DNA of 64,000 nt, from IMG/VR virus record IMGVR_UViG_3300005841_000939, one strand, 5' to 3'. Positions 29,021 to 53,810 of this stretch are shown one piece after another. Under the pieces are notes generated by a model that had not been told where the DNA came from, ran no database searches, and was given only the letters and a program-made list of their open reading frames with translations. The number at the start of each line of letters is the position of its first letter. Position 1 is the first letter of the stretch. This DNA is from a virus. Lineage: Duplodnaviria > Caudoviricetes. A program made the position numbers and the translations under genes.

Positions 29021-29097
29021 TGGTGGGAAGTCAGGGACTCGAACCCTGGACCTGGGGTTTATGAGACCCTTGCTCTAACCGACTGAGCTAACTTCCC
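29021..29097 (-). tRNA. tRNA with CAT anticodon (elongator Met or Ile2/lysidine)
   Basis: GGGAAGT/ACTTCCC acceptor, loop CTCATAA, TTCGAGT, encoded CCA. Confidence 0.9.
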
Positions 29098-31929: not shown

Positions 31930-32367
31930 ATGCACGATCTGTTCGCTCAAGTGAATACGAATGCACCCTTCACCATCGATCAGGATGACCTGGCCGAGTT
32001 CGCTGCCGAGCAGGGCTGGAAGGTGAGGACGGATTCCGATGCCATGCGGGTACATGAAATCATCTACACCAAACCCATCGAAGGAAATTCACATTACGAG
32101 TTCCAAATTTGGACGGGTGTGCATCGCCCCTCAGCACCACGTCCTGGCAAGCATCCCTTCCGAATCTTCGGATACAACAATGTCCTGAAGCAGAATCGCA
32201 CACACGAAGAAGTCGTCCTGCATCGCCCGGGATGGCGCATCAATGTCCCGATGACGATGGCACGCATGGAGGCGAAGCTGCGTGAACGCTGGATGAATCC
32301 GAAGCGTCCCCGGATGCTTGCTGCAGGTTACGTGGTGACCGAGTTCGGACAGCAGGTCCGATACTGA
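31930..32367 (+). CDS. hypothetical protein
   Basis: Own promoter; terminator 32371-32404. Confidence 0.75.
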   Translation: MHDLFAQVNTNAPFTIDQDDLAEFAAEQGWKVRTDSDAMRVHEIIYTKPIEGNSHYEFQIWTGVHRPSAPRPGKHPFRIFGYNNVLKQNRTHEEVVLHRPGWRINVPMTMARMEAKLRERWMNPKRPRMLAAGYVVTEFGQQVRY

Positions 32368-37269: not shown

Positions 37270-37887
37270 ATGTGTACAGACACAGATAAATTTTACAAGG
37301 GCAATATTTACAGAGCCCGTGACGGAAAAACCACATTGGTCAGCACACAAAAGACTGGCCTCAATGATCAAAATGTGTGGGTAATTCACAGTACCACTAA
37401 CCCAAAATACAGCAAGGGTCAATGGTTCCGTGGTTCAATGGGTCATGCACTCCCATGCAAGAATCCTCGTGGTTTCACTGAATCGGAACGTGAATGTCGT
37501 TTGCATCAACTTGATGCAGTTTCATATTCAGGTGATGATTTGTCATGGAATGATGTTGATAAGCTGGTCCTCAGCGATGCAGACAAGCTAGTCCCTAATC
37601 TCGCAATTGATGACATGGTTTCATTGAATGCGCCAGTCAAGGCAGTTGAAGTCAAAAAGCCTGTAGCATCAGTTGCAGCTCCTACAGCTAAAAAGCTGTC
37701 TGTTGCTGTTGTTCGTGATCCACAAGCCAAACCAAGCACTTCAAACGCCAAGGTCAGTGCAAAGGTAAAGAAGGTTGTTGCAAGCACTGGTTGGAAATCA
37801 CAGAAGCGCGATAGCTCAGGGCGTTTCCTCAGCAAATCAAAGGTTGTTGCAGGTCAGAAGCGTGATCGTAACGGACGTTTCGTCTAA
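37270..37887 (+). CDS. hypothetical protein, basic tail with two RDxxGRF motifs
   Basis: KRDSSGRF and KRDRNGRFV at C-terminus. Confidence 0.75.
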   Translation: MCTDTDKFYKGNIYRARDGKTTLVSTQKTGLNDQNVWVIHSTTNPKYSKGQWFRGSMGHALPCKNPRGFTESERECRLHQLDAVSYSGDDLSWNDVDKLVLSDADKLVPNLAIDDMVSLNAPVKAVEVKKPVASVAAPTAKKLSVAVVRDPQAKPSTSNAKVSAKVKKVVASTGWKSQKRDSSGRFLSKSKVVAGQKRDRNGRFV

Positions 37888-37895
37888 GAGCACGC

Positions 37896-37922
37896 TTGAC
37901 AGCAGGCCTTAAGGCGTAGACT
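37896..37922 (+). promoter_or_regulatory. class I promoter for large ncRNA candidate
   Basis: TTGACA-N15-TAGACT. Confidence 0.7.
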
Positions 37923-37927
37923 TCACA

Positions 37928-39000
37928 CATCGAAGACGATGATTCGCTAATAAGCTCGAAAGAGTAAAAAGGTGGTCATCTGACATCGGGCTCTTTGATG
38001 CATAGGGTGCAGACAGAACGGATGAGTCTAAACCAGTAATGCCGGGTACGGTTGATCTAACGGTAACTCCATTTAACGTGTGGAAGCCCAAAGATACAAA
38101 GGCCATGCATGAACGGTGTTCAAAGCCGAACATAAGATAAGCCGGAAACTTCTGCAACACCGATTCCTGGGATAGCAAAAAAACATTTGCCACCCATATA
38201 CCCAGGAAAGAAATGGGTTCACATATCTAGGAAGGGGCGGATAGACCTTCATCCCTGGCTCTATGTGAAACATTAACATTGTGGTGGCAGCAGGCGCAGT
38301 TGGTGAAAGCCTATTGCGATTGAAAACCGAGACTCTGATTGATGCGTGGAGGGTAAAGGGCCGTAGATCCGCATCAATAAATTGACTAGTGGCATCTAGT
38401 CAGCATCTTATCCCATGCCAGGGATGTTGCTCCACGTTTGAAAATTCCTGTGGAGGACGATATAGCGGGTGTTAATAACACTCAAAATGTGCAGCGGAAT
38501 GCTGCATATATGCGTATCGGTGCAAGAGTAAGTCAATGCGCGTTATAGCAACGTCGCCTAGGTTTTGAGACAGGATCAGCCCAATAAAGGGGTTGGTCCT
38601 GTTAGTTTTTCCTTGCGGCCTTACCTGTTCTGGATACATTAAGGCATATGGCTGTGAGCATCAGGAAAATATCTGATTTTCATATGTTCCTGGAGATTCC
38701 AGGGCATAAGCTCATGCTTGTCACTGTCTTCGGACGCATGAGCATTTCCAATAAGCCAATGCCTCCAACCCATTCATATCAGATTATGCGAAGGAATAAT
38801 CATAATAGATCCTAATTACATCTATACATTTATTTCTGAGGCTGGCAATCGTGGCGCAGGAAATAGTGTTGATGCAGCAATCAGGTCGGCACTTGGTGTT
38901 GACGCTCCTAAAAACCTGAAATATGGAAAATATGAATTGAGCAAGCCTCCAAGTACATATTTTAGGTCTTGTGATATTTTCCAGGTGCTTCACTCTGAAG
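37928..39000 (+). ncRNA. candidate large ornate structured ncRNA (~1.07 kb)
   Basis: No credible ORF; more than 10 stems, nested helices, GAAA and UUCG tetraloops; own promoter. Confidence 0.65.
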
Positions 39001-39144
39001 AAGAAGTCCTCATGGGGAAATTATACGTCTGAATTTTTGTTGCATTGTCTAGAAGCATGATATAGGATCCTGACAGTCCTGTTATCTTCTTGACTCAAAG
39101 ATGTCTAGGGTATATGAATAGTATTAAGCCCTAAAAGCATCCAT

Positions 39145-39384
39145 ATGTTTACTACTGCAACACATTATTACATTGTCTTCAAAGCAAGTAATGGAGAAGT
39201 CCTTTTCTTGCATGAGGATGATGATGGTTACAAGTTGCGTTTAAAGGCTGATAATGATGATTCAATTTGCTGTTTTGAATTAGGATCGGAAGCACATTAC
39301 GAAATGGGTCGGGCTGAATTGACCTTTCCGAAAATAAGGCTTGAAATCCTTCCTGAGGCGTGTACAGTGTGCGTAAGAAAGTGA
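39145..39384 (+). CDS. hypothetical protein
   Basis: ORF. Confidence 0.65.
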   Translation: MFTTATHYYIVFKASNGEVLFLHEDDDGYKLRLKADNDDSICCFELGSEAHYEMGRAELTFPKIRLEILPEACTVCVRK

Positions 39385-47674: not shown

Positions 47675-48037
47675 GCTATTTGCATCACTCCAAAACCTGA
47701 TCATCCAATTGATAAGTCCCGTCTTAAATTGAAAGTTAAGACTCAGAAGATCATCAATGTGATGCACAACGACCTTGATCATTTCATCAATCTGATGCTT
47801 GATATTCCAAAGGAAAGCCAATTTTGTTTGGAGGATCATTTACGAGAAGGACGTGATGCCAAATACAATTTCATGGCCAAGAAGGAATATGACCGTGACA
47901 TCACAATGAAAATTCAAAACTGGATTTTCGCAAAGTATCCTGTCAACAACAAACCTACTGTCCGAGAAATGATCAAGTATCTGGCAGACTCAAAGCGCAT
48001 TATGCATGGAATGTATATTGTGCGGGTTACTGGATAA
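47672..48037 (+). CDS. hypothetical protein
   Basis: GGAGG RBS. Confidence 0.7.
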   Translation: MAICITPKPDHPIDKSRLKLKVKTQKIINVMHNDLDHFINLMLDIPKESQFCLEDHLREGRDAKYNFMAKKEYDRDITMKIQNWIFAKYPVNNKPTVREMIKYLADSKRIMHGMYIVRVTG

Positions 48038-48048
48038 AAACCAACTGG

Positions 48049-48303
48049 ATGATAATAATGAAAATAATTAAATACATTGAACAGATGCCCGTCAAAGGAA
48101 AAGAACATATTCCTGTCAAACCAGATTTAGGCATTGGAACTATTGTTGAATACATGGGAACTGTTTGCACTGTGCAACATAGAAGGCAAACAGAATTAAA
48201 TTCAGGTTGGTTATATACCCTTTTGACACCTGATGGAAAATTTTTACCTGTCTATGGTACAGAAGCTATCATGCATTATAATAAGGTCAATAATAAAAAA
48301 TAG
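48049..48303 (+). CDS. hypothetical protein
   Basis: ORF. Confidence 0.55.
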   Translation: MIIMKIIKYIEQMPVKGKEHIPVKPDLGIGTIVEYMGTVCTVQHRRQTELNSGWLYTLLTPDGKFLPVYGTEAIMHYNKVNNKK

Positions 48304-48343
48304 GTCTTGACCTTAACTCATTTATATGTAAGCTATAAACATC

Positions 48344-48700
48344 ATGGCACAGATCACTTACTACCACGTAACCGAATCTCAGAACGTGGAATCCATTATG
48401 CAAAAGGGTCTTGTGCCGCAGGTTGGCAATCAGACTCGCGATCGGGATGCTGATATTTTCAATCGTGTTGATGCGGTATATGTGTTCATCTATAAGGATG
48501 ACATGCAGAAGTTTTTGGACAAAGGTGTGTATGGTGATTTTTACTATATGCAGAACACCTTTGTGTCTGTCTTTGAAGTGACATGCGATGACAGCATATT
48601 CCCAATCAAAACGAATTGGTATGCATCAACGAACAAAGTTATTCCGCCATCGTGCTTGAAGGTGATCGTTTCAGAATTCCCCGTCAACAGCATTTTCTAA
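48344..48700 (+). CDS. ADP-ribosyltransferase-fold-like small protein
   Basis: YYHVT..NVESIMQKGL..AVYVF..IPPSCL. Confidence 0.55.
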   Translation: MAQITYYHVTESQNVESIMQKGLVPQVGNQTRDRDADIFNRVDAVYVFIYKDDMQKFLDKGVYGDFYYMQNTFVSVFEVTCDDSIFPIKTNWYASTNKVIPPSCLKVIVSEFPVNSIF

Positions 48701-50393: not shown

Positions 50394-50469
<76 letters not shown>

Positions 50470-52976: not shown

Positions 52977-53410
52977 AAAAACTCCTCATTCTCATCGGCC
53001 CACCTGGCTCAGGCAAAAGCACATTCGCCAAAGAATATACGGCGAAGCTTGAAGCTGCGGGCAACAATTTCAGCATCCGTTCAACTGATGATCAGTTCAT
53101 GAAGGATGGCAAGTATTGTTTCGACCGCACCAAGTTGGGCCAATATCATCACAACAATATGATCCTGGCTGCAAAAGACATGGATTTGAATATTGATGTG
53201 GTGATCATCGACAACACCAACGTTAATCCCAGGGATTACAAAGTGTACATTGATGCTGCCAATTCGCGCGGCTACGAAGTTGAATATCACACGATGGATA
53301 CCGATTTGGATACGTGCTTGGCTCGCAATGCCACTCGTACACCCGATCGCAAAGTTCCTGATGATGTGGTCAAGCGCATGTGGGAAACTGTCAATAAACA
53401 AAACAAGTGA
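52973..53410 (+). CDS. P-loop kinase (AAA_33/polynucleotide-kinase-like)
   Basis: LIGPPGSGKST, STDD, IIDNTN, CLARN..VPDDVV.RM. Confidence 0.85.
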   Translation: MKKLLILIGPPGSGKSTFAKEYTAKLEAAGNNFSIRSTDDQFMKDGKYCFDRTKLGQYHHNNMILAAKDMDLNIDVVIIDNTNVNPRDYKVYIDAANSRGYEVEYHTMDTDLDTCLARNATRTPDRKVPDDVVKRMWETVNKQNK

Positions 53411-53416
53411 TAGAAT

Positions 53417-53674
53417 TTGCTGATGAAGTTTTATCAGCCTATTCAAGACATCACTCAGGTTATCAAGGAGCCCTTCTTTAAAAAGAATGTGGCTCCGACA
53501 TTGCTTTCTGGTGGCGTCTTCATTTTCAATAAATTTGAAGATTCCTCAGAATATTTTGTAGTGATGGTGCGACAACACGACGAAATCAGCCAAATACCTC
53601 CCTCAAGACCTAGCAATTGGTTCTTGACTGAGGAAGATATACCGATAAATAATGATCATCATGAAGAAGACTAA
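53417..53674 (+). CDS. hypothetical protein
   Basis: ORF. Confidence 0.55.
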   Translation: MLMKFYQPIQDITQVIKEPFFKKNVAPTLLSGGVFIFNKFEDSSEYFVVMVRQHDEISQIPPSRPSNWFLTEEDIPINNDHHEED

Positions 53675-53810
53675 GGAAATAAAGGGAGCTAATAGAGAAG
53701 TTCGCCAAGAAATGATCCGTAAGCACGGTGATTCTTGGAAAGTTCCTGCTCCCAAAGTCTTCAGAGATAAGAAGCGTGAAGCTAGCCGACGCTGGAATTC
53801 TGACGATTAA
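53661..53810 (+). CDS. 49-aa basic peptide
   Basis: MKKTKEIKGANREVRQEM..; below ORF-track cutoff. Confidence 0.45.
   Translation: MKKTKEIKGANREVRQEMIRKHGDSWKVPAPKVFRDKKREASRRWNSDD

What the first reader, a model, noticed from the sequence alone, without database searches (positions are those of the whole stretch)
37896..39000. ~1.07-kb ORF-free, densely base-paired transcription unit: candidate large ornate ncRNA
Seen: in a genome that is otherwise wall-to-wall small ORFs, a class I promoter (TTGACA-N15-TAGACT, 37896-37922) is followed by ~1.07 kb with no credible ORF. Complementary segments: CATCG/CGATG (37928/37937), CTC-GAAA-GAG (37955), TTCCTGGG/CCCAGGAA (38164/38201), TTCACATA/TATGTGAA (38218/38262), ATTGATGCG/CGCATCAAT (38338/38370), TGACTAG/CTAGTCA (38383/38396), ATGTGCAGC/GCTGCATAT (38487/38501), ACAGGATCAGCC/GGTTGGTCCTGT (38570/38591, two G-U pairs favouring the + strand), CCTGGA/TCCAGG (38689/38698), GCTCATGC/GCATGAGC enclosing GTC-TTCG-GAC (38710-38743), TGGAAAATAT/ATATTTTCCA (38924/38974). 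Established: phages and prophages carry large ornate RNAs of unknown function (GOLLD, ROOL). Inference: this is such an RNA or a new class. I saw no group II intron domain V, tmRNA ends or RNase P signature.
Basis: partly seen in the sequence, partly recalled or inferred. Interest (0 to 1): 0.88.

Follow-up and report, generated by a model that had tools for sequence, protein, structure and literature searches.

The report
New large folded RNA, soil jumbo phage
The gene-free stretch holds a stand-alone gene for a roughly 680-base folded RNA that matches no catalogued RNA family and is kept in three related lineages of giant soil phages; the last quarter of the flagged interval is an unrelated spacer plus a small protein gene, and the RNA's function is unknown.

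Summary
Window 37888-38801 has stop codons of all three kinds in all six frames and matches no Rfam family. The RNA is about 684 nt (about 37929-38612, + strand), not 1.07 kb. It runs from a conserved TTGACA-N15-TAGACT promoter to a conserved intrinsic terminator.

The rest of the flagged interval is a 190-nt insert found only in this phage, followed by a 76-codon gene (38802-39032). That gene has ATG-starting homologs in relatives but begins with ATA here.

Homologs exist only in soil and rhizosphere metagenome contigs. Two are full length (L004 = L010/L013/L014, and L012) and one is partial (L009). Differences show no codon periodicity. A 40-nt core block is 97% identical, while the neighbouring genes are 58-76% identical.

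The two-sequence consensus fold is far more stable than column-shuffled controls (-132 versus -67 ± 6 kcal/mol). Coding controls show no such excess. Compensatory changes are enriched two- to three-fold, which is real but moderate given only three lineages. Three variable arms stay hairpins although their sequences are unrelated.

One soil metatranscriptome holds 45% of the sampled words of the relative's RNA. The function is unknown. My best guess is a trans-acting folded RNA of the GOLLD/ROOL/OLE kind, with two invariant hairpin loops (UGGCAU and AUGCCA) that could kiss.

Earlier follow-ups in this scan reported other undescribed large RNAs in jumbo phages. This one shares no detectable sequence with any catalogued phage.

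The parts
37896..37922 (+). Promoter TTGACA-N15-TAGACT. The inferred transcript start is about 37929.
   Evidence: Exact match. The hexamers and 9 of 15 spacer bases are identical in L004, although a different gene lies upstream there. The same N15 layout sits upstream of many + strand genes in the window. In L012 homology starts just downstream of the promoter's place. The start site is inferred, not mapped.
37929..38612 (+). The structured non-coding RNA, about 684 nt
   Evidence: Stops in all frames and no codon periodicity. Homologous to L004:1975-2622 and L012:36-736. Consensus fold -132 versus -67 ± 6 kcal/mol in column shuffles. No Rfam family.
37954..37965 (+). 5' hairpin GCUC-GAAA-GAGU
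   Evidence: Two both-sided compensatory changes against L004 and L012 (GCGU/ACGU).
38008..38156 (+). Domain closed by the helix UGCAGA/UCUGCA (38008-13 / 38151-56). It contains variable arm 1 (38039-38110) on a conserved AUGC/GCAU base.
   Evidence: The closing helix is invariant in the window and L004. In L012 one C becomes U, giving a G-U pair that is valid only on the + strand. The arm folds as a long stem-loop in all three lineages with unrelated sequence.
38164..38208 (+). Variable hairpin (UUCCUGGG/CCCAGGAA with an inner GCAAA/UUUGC)
   Evidence: L004 and L012 have a different stem (CUCUCAG/CUGAGAG with an inner GGCA/UGCC) at the same place. Fold z is -4.7 in the window and -2.4 in L004.
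38219..38268 (+). Hairpin UCACAUA/UAUGUGA with an inner stem
   Evidence: One compensatory change in the outer stem and two in the inner stem.
38291..38322 (+). Hairpin of 11 bp
   Evidence: Three compensatory and two one-sided changes against L004. One wobble pair is lost in L012.
38323..38566 (+). The 3' core, the most conserved part. It is bounded by AAAACC/GGUUUU (38323-28 / 38561-66) and ACUCU/AGAGU (38332-36 / 38525-29).
   Evidence: The bounding helices carry one and two compensatory changes. 86% identity over 148 nt and 97% over 38391-38430, against 58-76% in the neighbouring genes.
38338..38378 (+). Hairpin AUUGAUGCG/CGCAUCAAU, capped by a nearly invariant 23-nt loop that contains GGAGGGUAAAGGGCCGU
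   Evidence: Two compensatory changes in the stem. The loop segment GCGUGGAG can instead pair with CUCCACGU (38430-37), with one compensatory change of its own. This is a possible alternative fold.
38383..38402 (+). Hairpin UGACUAG/CUAGUCA with loop UGGCAU (38390-38395)
   Evidence: One compensatory change (A-U to G-C). The loop is invariant and is the exact complement of the loop of the next hairpin (read).
38409..38426 (+). Hairpin UAUCCC/GGGAUG with loop AUGCCA (38415-38420)
   Evidence: Invariant in all full-length sequences. The loop-loop pairing with 38390-38395 is inferred, not tested.
38428..38457 (+). Hairpin CUCCAC/GUGGAG with a conserved 14-nt loop
   Evidence: Invariant in the window, L004 and L012. 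In L009 the 3' arm reads CCCAGGG, but the contig ends before the 5' arm.
38458..38517 (+). Variable arm 2 (two hairpins)
   Evidence: There are two hairpins of unrelated sequence in the window, L012 and L009, and one in L004.
38538..38557 (+). Hairpin GCGCGUU/AACGUCGC
   Evidence: One compensatory change (C-G to A-U), shared by L004, L012 and L009.
38569..38612 (+). Intrinsic terminator: a 14-pair stem followed by UUAGUUUUUCC
   Evidence: Found by the terminator scan. The stem with one compensatory change and the U tract are kept in L004, L012 and L009.
38613..38801 (+). Insert of about 190 nt found only in this phage. It has several hairpins, and an AAGGA ribosome-binding-like site at 38791-38795.
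   Evidence: Absent from L004, L012 and L009, where the small gene follows the terminator within about 10-40 nt. There is no other copy in the window or in the loci.
38802..39032 (+). Small acidic protein gene (76 codons). Its first codon is ATA where the relatives have ATG.
   Evidence: 46% identity to the L004 product by BLASTP, E = 1e-25. Alignment. Differences by codon position are 25/22/47 (window versus L004) and 17/7/46 (L004 versus L009). pI is 4.4-5.7. AlphaFold2 pLDDT is 85, with no fold match.

Best explanation
Window about 37929-38612 (+) is a stand-alone gene for an approximately 684-nt, multi-domain structured RNA of an undescribed family. It is carried by a rare clade of T4-like jumbo phages from soil and rhizosphere.

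Shown:
- It is non-coding.
- Its boundaries, a sigma-70-like promoter of the phage's common N15 type and an intrinsic terminator, are conserved while the DNA upstream differs between relatives.
- Its fold is conserved, with compensatory changes in about ten helices and three arms that keep their shape while their sequence is replaced.
- The + strand is the RNA strand.

Inferred:
- Host RNA polymerase makes the RNA, and most transcripts stop at the terminator, giving a stable RNA that acts in trans as a folded particle.
- The nearly invariant 3' core is the working part. It has two adjacent hairpins whose 6-nt loops, UGGCAU and AUGCCA, are exact complements.
- The first hairpin abuts the GCAUC/GGUGC helix directly and the second follows it after one base. 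If the three stack end to end, the loops point apart, which would favour pairing between molecules (dimers or larger assemblies, as in OLE, ROOL and GOLLD). A within-molecule kiss is equally possible.
- The 76-codon gene downstream has no room for a promoter of its own in the relatives, so it is probably made from read-through transcripts.

The cellular target or role of the RNA is not known.
For: Non-coding:
- Stops of all three kinds occur in all six frames.
- Differences from L004 fall evenly on positions mod 3 (70/72/63). A coding control gives 34/100/59.

Unit boundaries:
- The promoter is conserved in L004 behind a different upstream gene.
- In L012 homology begins at the RNA's 5' end.
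- The terminator is found by scan and kept in three relatives.

Conservation:
- The core is 86% identical over 148 nt and 97% over 40 nt. The flanking genes are 58-76% identical.

Structure:
- The RNAalifold consensus energy is -132.45 kcal/mol against -66.8 ± 6.2 in 100 column shuffles.
- It has 26 compensatory pairs against 13.2 ± 3.6 in shuffles (maximum 20).
- Two coding alignments treated the same way give z = -0.9 and -0.5.
- Pairs taken from either sequence's own minimum-energy fold show 7 both-sided changes in well-aligned blocks. Sliding the partner by 1-3 columns gives 0-2.
- Conserved helices of at least 6 bp with at least one compensatory change number 10, against 3.2 ± 1.7 in shuffles.
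- The variable arms fold as hairpins in every lineage.

Strand:
- The - strand consensus is only -88.8 kcal/mol.
- A C-to-U change in L012 gives a G-U pair that is valid only on the + strand.

Expression hint:
- A soil metatranscriptome run holds 45% of the sampled words of the L010 RNA.

No known family:
- Rfam finds none for the window or the relatives.
- ARAGORN finds no tmRNA or tRNA there.
Against: - There are only three lineages, two of which are 91% alike, plus one fragment. No statistical covariation test such as R-scape is possible.
- In the unbiased test, 11-13 changed pairs are broken alongside 12-14 kept. So part of any predicted fold is wrong or not conserved.
- Roughly half of the covarying helices could arise by chance.
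- The long-range helices differ between the two- and three-sequence consensus folds.
- The single-sequence z of -4.3 is matched by 2 of 29 background windows.
- Both kissing loops are invariant, so that pairing has no covariation support. I estimate a chance probability of 0.05-0.1 for such a match among about 15 loops.
- Transcript ends and abundance were not measured.
- No function is shown.
Confidence: 0.72

Rival explanations
1. The RNA is a giant cis-acting leader. Its fold would decide whether transcription passes the terminator into the 76-codon gene, as in an attenuator or riboswitch-like control. It would not be a trans-acting RNA.
For: In L004, L012 and L009 the small gene starts about 10-40 nt after the terminator's U tract, which leaves no room for a promoter. 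The next gene downstream has its own conserved promoters. The segment CUCCAC(G/A)U has two possible partners, each supported by a matching change, which suggests a switch.
Against: A 680-nt leader for a 76-codon gene would be without precedent that I know of. No antiterminator pairing with the terminator's 5' arm is conserved (my reading). In this phage a 190-nt insert and the loss of ATG have loosened the link to the gene, yet the RNA core stays 86-97% identical. The RNA evolves much more slowly than the gene it would control, which is 46-52% identical at protein level.
Confidence: 0.13
2. The RNA is one half of a ribonucleoprotein. The co-transcribed small protein would be its partner, as OLE RNA pairs with the product of the gene that follows it.
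For: The RNA followed by the small gene is conserved in all four independent contigs. The gene probably depends on the RNA's promoter.
Against: The protein is acidic (pI 4.4-5.7). It has no recognisable RNA-binding fold or family. The genes further downstream are just as syntenic, so adjacency carries little weight. In this phage the gene has lost its ATG.
Confidence: 0.1
3. The stretch is not a functional RNA. It would be decayed coding DNA, a plain spacer, or a DNA-level element such as a replication origin.
For: No transcript was measured directly. The region's MFE z-score is not unique in the window. Many predicted pairs are not conserved.
Against: The core is more conserved than the flanking genes. 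There is no codon periodicity. Compensatory changes are enriched and coding controls are flat. Energies and G-U pairs are specific to one strand. The promoter and terminator are conserved. Cumulative GC skew has no turning point here.
Confidence: 0.04
4. It is a self-splicing intron or another known ribozyme or RNA class (group I or II intron, RNase P, tmRNA, GOLLD, ROOL) that is too diverged for the models.
For: The size is compatible with an ORF-less group II intron or with GOLLD or ROOL. The upstream neighbours differ between relatives, as they would for a mobile element.
Against: No Rfam hit inside the RNA unit even at E <= 10, in the window or in the relatives. No gene is interrupted. The unit has its own promoter and terminator. 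The upstream reading frame ends at a normal stop at 37885-37887. ARAGORN finds nothing.
Confidence: 0.02

Closest known systems
ROOL RNA (Rfam RF03087) and GOLLD RNA (RF01998)
   Same: They are large (about 580 to over 800 nt), multi-domain, protein-free-looking RNAs encoded by phages and prophages, with unknown function. They combine a conserved region with poorly conserved linker or arm regions. Kissing loops hold them together, and cryo-EM shows homo-oligomeric cages (PMC12286853, read).
   Different: There is no covariance-model match even at E <= 10, so it is not a member. It is not next to a tRNA island: the nearest tRNA genes are 9-12 kb away. It is found so far only in soil and rhizosphere jumbo-phage contigs. 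Oligomerisation is untested.
OLE RNA (RF01071) with its downstream partner gene
   Same: A structured RNA of about 600 nt sits directly upstream of, and is co-transcribed with, a small gene. OLE forms a dimer partly through a kissing loop (PMC12286853). That OLE's downstream gene encodes its protein partner is from my own knowledge.
   Different: There is no model match. OLE is bacterial (extremophilic Firmicutes) and its partner is a membrane protein. Here the downstream protein is a soluble-looking acidic 76-mer with no known fold.
Undescribed large RNAs of other jumbo phages reported earlier in this scan (RaK2-like enterobacterial phages; a Pseudomonas jumbo phage)
   Same: Each is a stand-alone promoter-to-terminator gene for a 0.5-0.9 kb folded RNA in a jumbo phage, absent from Rfam, of unknown function (AI notes, not checked by me).
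   Different: blastn of this region against 50,697 phage records finds nothing, and the scan's sequence index finds no look-alike. It is single-copy in this window, whereas the RaK2-type family is multi-copy.

Membership tests
GOLLD (RF01998), ROOL (RF03087), OLE (RF01071), raiA and the other large Rfam RNAs | A match to the family covariance model (sequence plus consensus structure) | tested here: not met
   cmscan of the whole window at gathering score finds only 4 tRNAs. In 37700-39300 at E <= 10 there are only chance-level miRNA and snoRNA hits, none of them inside the RNA unit. The relatives L012 and L009 at E <= 5 give nothing in the RNA.
GOLLD / ROOL | Homo-oligomeric cage held by intermolecular kissing loops and A-minor contacts | not testable with these tools
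   Only a candidate pair of complementary loops is seen (38390-95 and 38415-20). Testing needs native gels, SEC-MALS or cryo-EM.
GOLLD / ROOL | Usual location next to tRNA islands in phages and prophages | tested here: not met
   The nearest tRNA genes are at 29021-29097 (-) and 50394-50469 (+), 9-12 kb away.
Group I / group II self-splicing introns | Catalytic core (P3-P9 with P7, or domain V with GUGYG...AY ends) and an interrupted host gene | tested here: not met
   There is no Rfam intron hit at E <= 10. The upstream ORF ends at a normal stop. The unit has its own promoter and terminator.
tmRNA / RNase P RNA | A tRNA-like domain with a tag reading frame; or the P4 helix formed by conserved regions I and V | tested here: not met
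   ARAGORN finds no tmRNA. Rfam gives no RNase P or tmRNA hit. By eye, an ACAGAAC and a GAGUAAGUC segment occur in the wrong order and cannot form P4.
Riboswitch / attenuator leader | A conserved alternative pairing that competes with the terminator stem | tested here: inconclusive
   No conserved antiterminator for the 38569-38603 stem was seen. A possible alternative pairing exists elsewhere in the core.
Structured non-coding RNA gene (generic) | Non-coding, own transcription signals, and a structure conserved with compensatory changes | tested here: met
   non-coding; signals; structure. Transcription itself is only hinted at.

The most novel reading that the evidence does not exclude
This is the founding member of a new class of self-assembling phage RNAs. 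The invariant UGGCAU and AUGCCA loops on the two hairpins that flank a short helix would pair between molecules, building dimers or larger RNA-only assemblies, as OLE, ROOL and GOLLD do by unrelated sequences. The competing CUCCAC/GUGGAG pairings could act as a conformational switch for assembly.
Probability: 0.15. Interest if true: 0.85.

Novelty: new variant of a known kind. Interest (0 to 1): 0.6.

Why it matters
Large, intricately folded RNAs with no known job are rare. The few known ones (GOLLD, ROOL, OLE) turned out to form RNA-only assemblies of a kind not seen before. A further, unrelated family would show that such RNAs are a recurrent phage invention. This one comes from uncultured soil jumbo phages and has a clean promoter-to-terminator unit, a 97%-conserved core and a candidate loop-loop contact. 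It would also give structural biologists a defined 684-nt construct to transcribe and image. On the practical side, gene callers left this 1.26-kb gap empty in most assemblies of the phage and missed the ATA-start gene inside it.

Tried and rejected
- **Recoded gene:** rejected. All three stop codons are frequent in all six frames.
- **Known RNA family:** no credible match in the region, in the window or the relatives. ARAGORN finds nothing there.
- **Similarity to catalogued phages, or to E. coli including its rRNA:** none.
- **More homologs, all empty:**
  - IMG/VR by protein and by four DNA patterns.
  - One genome per prokaryote species, by two patterns.
  - HMMER over 1.84 billion representative proteins with the 79-aa neighbour found only the query itself, plus one weak unrelated hit.
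  - The single metagenome scan returned only L010, which is identical to L004.
- **Strain variation for covariation:** L001-L003 and runs X1-X4 are base-for-base identical to the window.
- **Paralogs:** none by blastn or by a covariance model of the 3' core, in the window or in the other loci.
- **More distant relatives:** phages with a 37%-identical upstream protein (L005-L008), and L011, have small ORFs at this position and no such RNA.
- **Small protein:** no Pfam family, no solved-fold match by Foldseek, and a best VIA-align Z of 4.5. Its function stays unknown.
- **Whole-genome search for other copies:** not possible, because the record is not held.
- **RNase P-like reading of ACAGAAC and GAGUAAGUC:** rejected by eye. 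The order is wrong and no P4 pairing is possible.
- **Single-sequence folding energy as proof of structure:** downgraded after the background scan.
Full report
**Setting**

The window comes from a giant phage. It encodes rIIA and rIIB and four tRNAs. It lies on a 379,560-bp contig assembled from rhizosphere metagenomes. No record in a 50,697-genome phage collection resembles it at DNA level. No whole genome is held for it.

**Checking the observation**

The promoter-like TTGACA-N15-TAGACT is exactly at 37896-37922, and the listed complementary segments I checked are at the stated places. From 37888 to about 38740 every one of the six frames is broken many times by TAA, TAG and TGA, so reassigning a stop codon cannot rescue an ORF.

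Rfam gives only the four tRNAs at gathering score. At E <= 10 it gives nothing within the RNA unit in 37700-39300.

The + strand of 37925-38925 folds at -325.7 kcal/mol, against -286.9 ± 10.1 for dinucleotide shuffles (z = -3.85). The - strand gives z = -2.35. For the final 684-nt unit z is -4.3 with 100 shuffles.

That figure needs a control. I ran 29 other 684-nt windows of the same phage. They average z = -1.95, and two are as low as the RNA. Folding energy of one sequence is therefore suggestive, not decisive.

**The 3' end of the interval is not RNA**

Frame +0 is open from 38742 to 39032 but has no ATG, GTG or TTG until 38937. Its product aligns with a called 83-aa gene of a related contig (46% identity, E = 1e-25) and with a 76-aa gene of a third contig.

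Differences between the copies pile up on third codon positions: 25/22/47 and 17/7/46. This is a real gene under purifying selection. The relatives start it with ATG. This phage has ATA at 38802, preceded by AAGGA. So the gene either uses a weak near-cognate start or has just lost its start.

The protein is acidic (pI 4.4-5.7). Its model is confident (pLDDT 85) but matches no family or solved fold.

**Relatives**

Identical copies (L001-L003, runs X1-X4) give no variation. Homologs of the flanking proteins led to three further lineages, all from soil or rhizosphere metagenomes:
- L004, which is identical to L010, L013 and L014.
- L012, which is 91% identical to L004.
- L009, a 756-bp contig that covers only the last 195 nt of the RNA.

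Window 37894-38457 aligns to L004:1945-2504 at 69% identity, and 38518-38614 aligns to L004:2525-2619 at 78%. In L004 two extra genes sit between the homolog of the window's upstream gene and the RNA. In L012 the DNA upstream of the RNA's 5' end is different again. The element is therefore a module with its own boundaries.

More distant phages keep the neighbouring genes but have small ORFs here instead (L005-L008, L011).

**Boundaries**

The promoter hexamers and most of the spacer are identical in L004. The same TTGACx-N15-TAnnnT layout precedes many + strand genes in this window.

The terminator scan finds a 14-pair stem at 38569-38603 followed by a U tract. The stem, with one compensatory change, and the U tract are kept in L004, L012 and L009.

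The RNA is thus about 37929-38612, roughly 684 nt. This agrees with another first-stage note on the same stretch.

Window 38613-38801 is absent from the relatives. There the small gene begins about 10-40 nt after the U tract. The insert is unique.

**Is it a structured RNA?**

- *Non-coding pattern.* Differences from L004 are spread evenly over positions mod 3 (70/72/63). A neighbouring coding stretch gives 34/100/59.
- *Conservation.* It is patchy in the way of RNAs. There are blocks of 97% (38391-38430) and 86% over 148 nt, set between arms of 7-50% identity. The flanking genes are 58-76% identical.
- *Consensus fold.* RNAalifold on the window plus L004 gives -132.45 kcal/mol, with 152 pairs, 26 of them with both sides changed. 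I ran 100 column shuffles that keep each column's conservation class and re-predicted the fold each time. They give -66.8 ± 6.2 kcal/mol and 13.2 ± 3.6 such pairs, with a maximum of 20.
- *Coding controls.* Two coding alignments of similar identity, treated the same way, give z = -0.9 and -0.5.
- *Strand.* The reverse strand reaches only -88.8 kcal/mol. A C-to-U change in L012 turns a G-C pair of the UGCAGA/UCUGCA helix into G-U, which is valid on the + strand only.
- *A less flattering test.* I took the pairs from one sequence's own minimum-energy fold and scored them in the other sequence, within well-aligned blocks. This finds 7 both-sided compensatory changes, against 0-2 when the partner is slid by 1-3 columns. 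It also finds 11-13 changed pairs that are broken.
- *Helices counted without an energy model.* Conserved helices of at least 6 bp with at least one compensatory change number 10, against 3.2 ± 1.7 in shuffles.
- *Reading of these tests.* Covariation is real but moderate. A good part of any single predicted fold is unreliable, and the long-range helices differ between the two- and three-sequence consensus.
- *Variable arms.* Three arms (38039-38110, 38164-38208, 38458-38517) have essentially unrelated sequences in the different lineages. Yet each folds as a hairpin or a pair of hairpins on a conserved base.

**Architecture**

The best-supported helices are listed under parts. In order, the RNA has:
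- a 5' domain with a covarying GAAA-capped hairpin;
- a domain closed by UGCAGA/UCUGCA that carries variable arm 1;
- three hairpins;
- the conserved 3' core, closed by AAAACC/GGUUUU and ACUCU/AGAGU;
- the terminator.

The core holds these elements:
- a hairpin with a nearly invariant 23-nt G-rich loop;
- two adjacent hairpins whose 6-nt loops, UGGCAU (38390-95) and AUGCCA (38415-20), are exact complements;
- a CUCCAC/GUGGAG hairpin;
- variable arm 2;
- a small covarying hairpin.

CUCCAC(G/A)U can instead pair with GCGUGGAG in the 23-nt loop region. The base change in L004 fits that pairing too, which hints at two alternative folds. Both loop sequences are invariant, so the loop-loop contact rests only on complementarity and position.

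**Expression**

No RNA run holds the window's own sequence. One soil metatranscriptome holds 45% of the sampled 31-mers of the L010 RNA. I could not lay those reads, because that call was already spent. This is therefore only a hint.

**What it most likely is**

It is a stand-alone, trans-acting structured RNA of a new family, of the same general kind as GOLLD, ROOL and OLE. Those are large phage or bacterial RNAs of unknown function, shown by cryo-EM to form RNA-only oligomers through kissing loops and A-minor contacts (PMC12286853). It is not a member of any of these families, and it does not sit by a tRNA island.

The small gene downstream is probably expressed by terminator read-through. 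This leaves two rivals open: a giant regulatory leader, and an RNA-protein pair as with OLE. The first is weakened by the RNA's much slower evolution and by the loosened link in this phage. The second is weakened by the protein's acidity and lack of any RNA-binding signature. Decayed DNA, a replication origin and an intron are each unlikely, for the reasons given under rivals.

**Relation to earlier notes of this scan**

Follow-ups on other genomes reported undescribed large RNAs in RaK2-like and Pseudomonas jumbo phages. I did not check those reports. This RNA shares no detectable sequence with any catalogued phage or with any indexed window. It would be a further, separate family.

**Verdict**

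The finding is real but smaller than flagged: 684 nt of RNA, a 190-nt lineage-specific insert and a missed small gene. It is a new RNA family on present evidence, supported by three lineages only, with unknown function.

Noticed in passing
window 38802-39032: A conserved 76-codon gene begins with ATA where the relatives have ATG, 6 nt after an AAGGA. Gene callers in all three assemblies of this phage missed it. It either uses a near-cognate start or has recently lost its start.
   Followed up: partly
L004:1546-1950 (= L013:704-1108); L011:567-1004: A 134-145-aa phage protein whose C-terminus matches the ribosomal L7/L12 C-terminal domain above Pfam's cut-off (29.2 and 27.4 bits against 25.9). 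In L004 it lies directly upstream of the RNA's promoter. No clear homolog was found in this window.
   Followed up: partly
L004:903-1373: A 156-aa protein made largely of about 8-residue repeats of the form x-T-G-x-x-C-T-F. The repeats also show up as internal DNA repeats in blastn.
   Followed up: no
window 24000-53000, + strand: A family of promoter-like sites, TTGAC(A/C/T)-N15-TAnnnT, lies in front of many small + strand genes. There are 42 matches against 28 ± 6 expected. The 15-nt spacer is shorter than the usual 16-18 nt, so the standard scan misses them.
   Followed up: partly
window 47900-48583 and 53100-53783: These two background windows fold as far below their shuffles (z = -4.4 and -4.2) as the RNA studied here. 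The windows at 32300 and 59600 are also low (-3.9 and -3.6). They may hold other structured elements.
   Followed up: no
window 39040-39130: Two N15-type promoter-like sites (TTGCAT...TATAGG and TTGACT...TATATG) precede the 79-aa gene at 39145. Both have counterparts in L004. That gene therefore does not depend on the RNA's promoter.
   Followed up: partly
window 38613-38801: A unique 190-nt insert between the terminator and the small gene folds into several stable hairpins (-56 kcal/mol). One of them has a UUCG loop. Its origin is unknown.
   Followed up: partly
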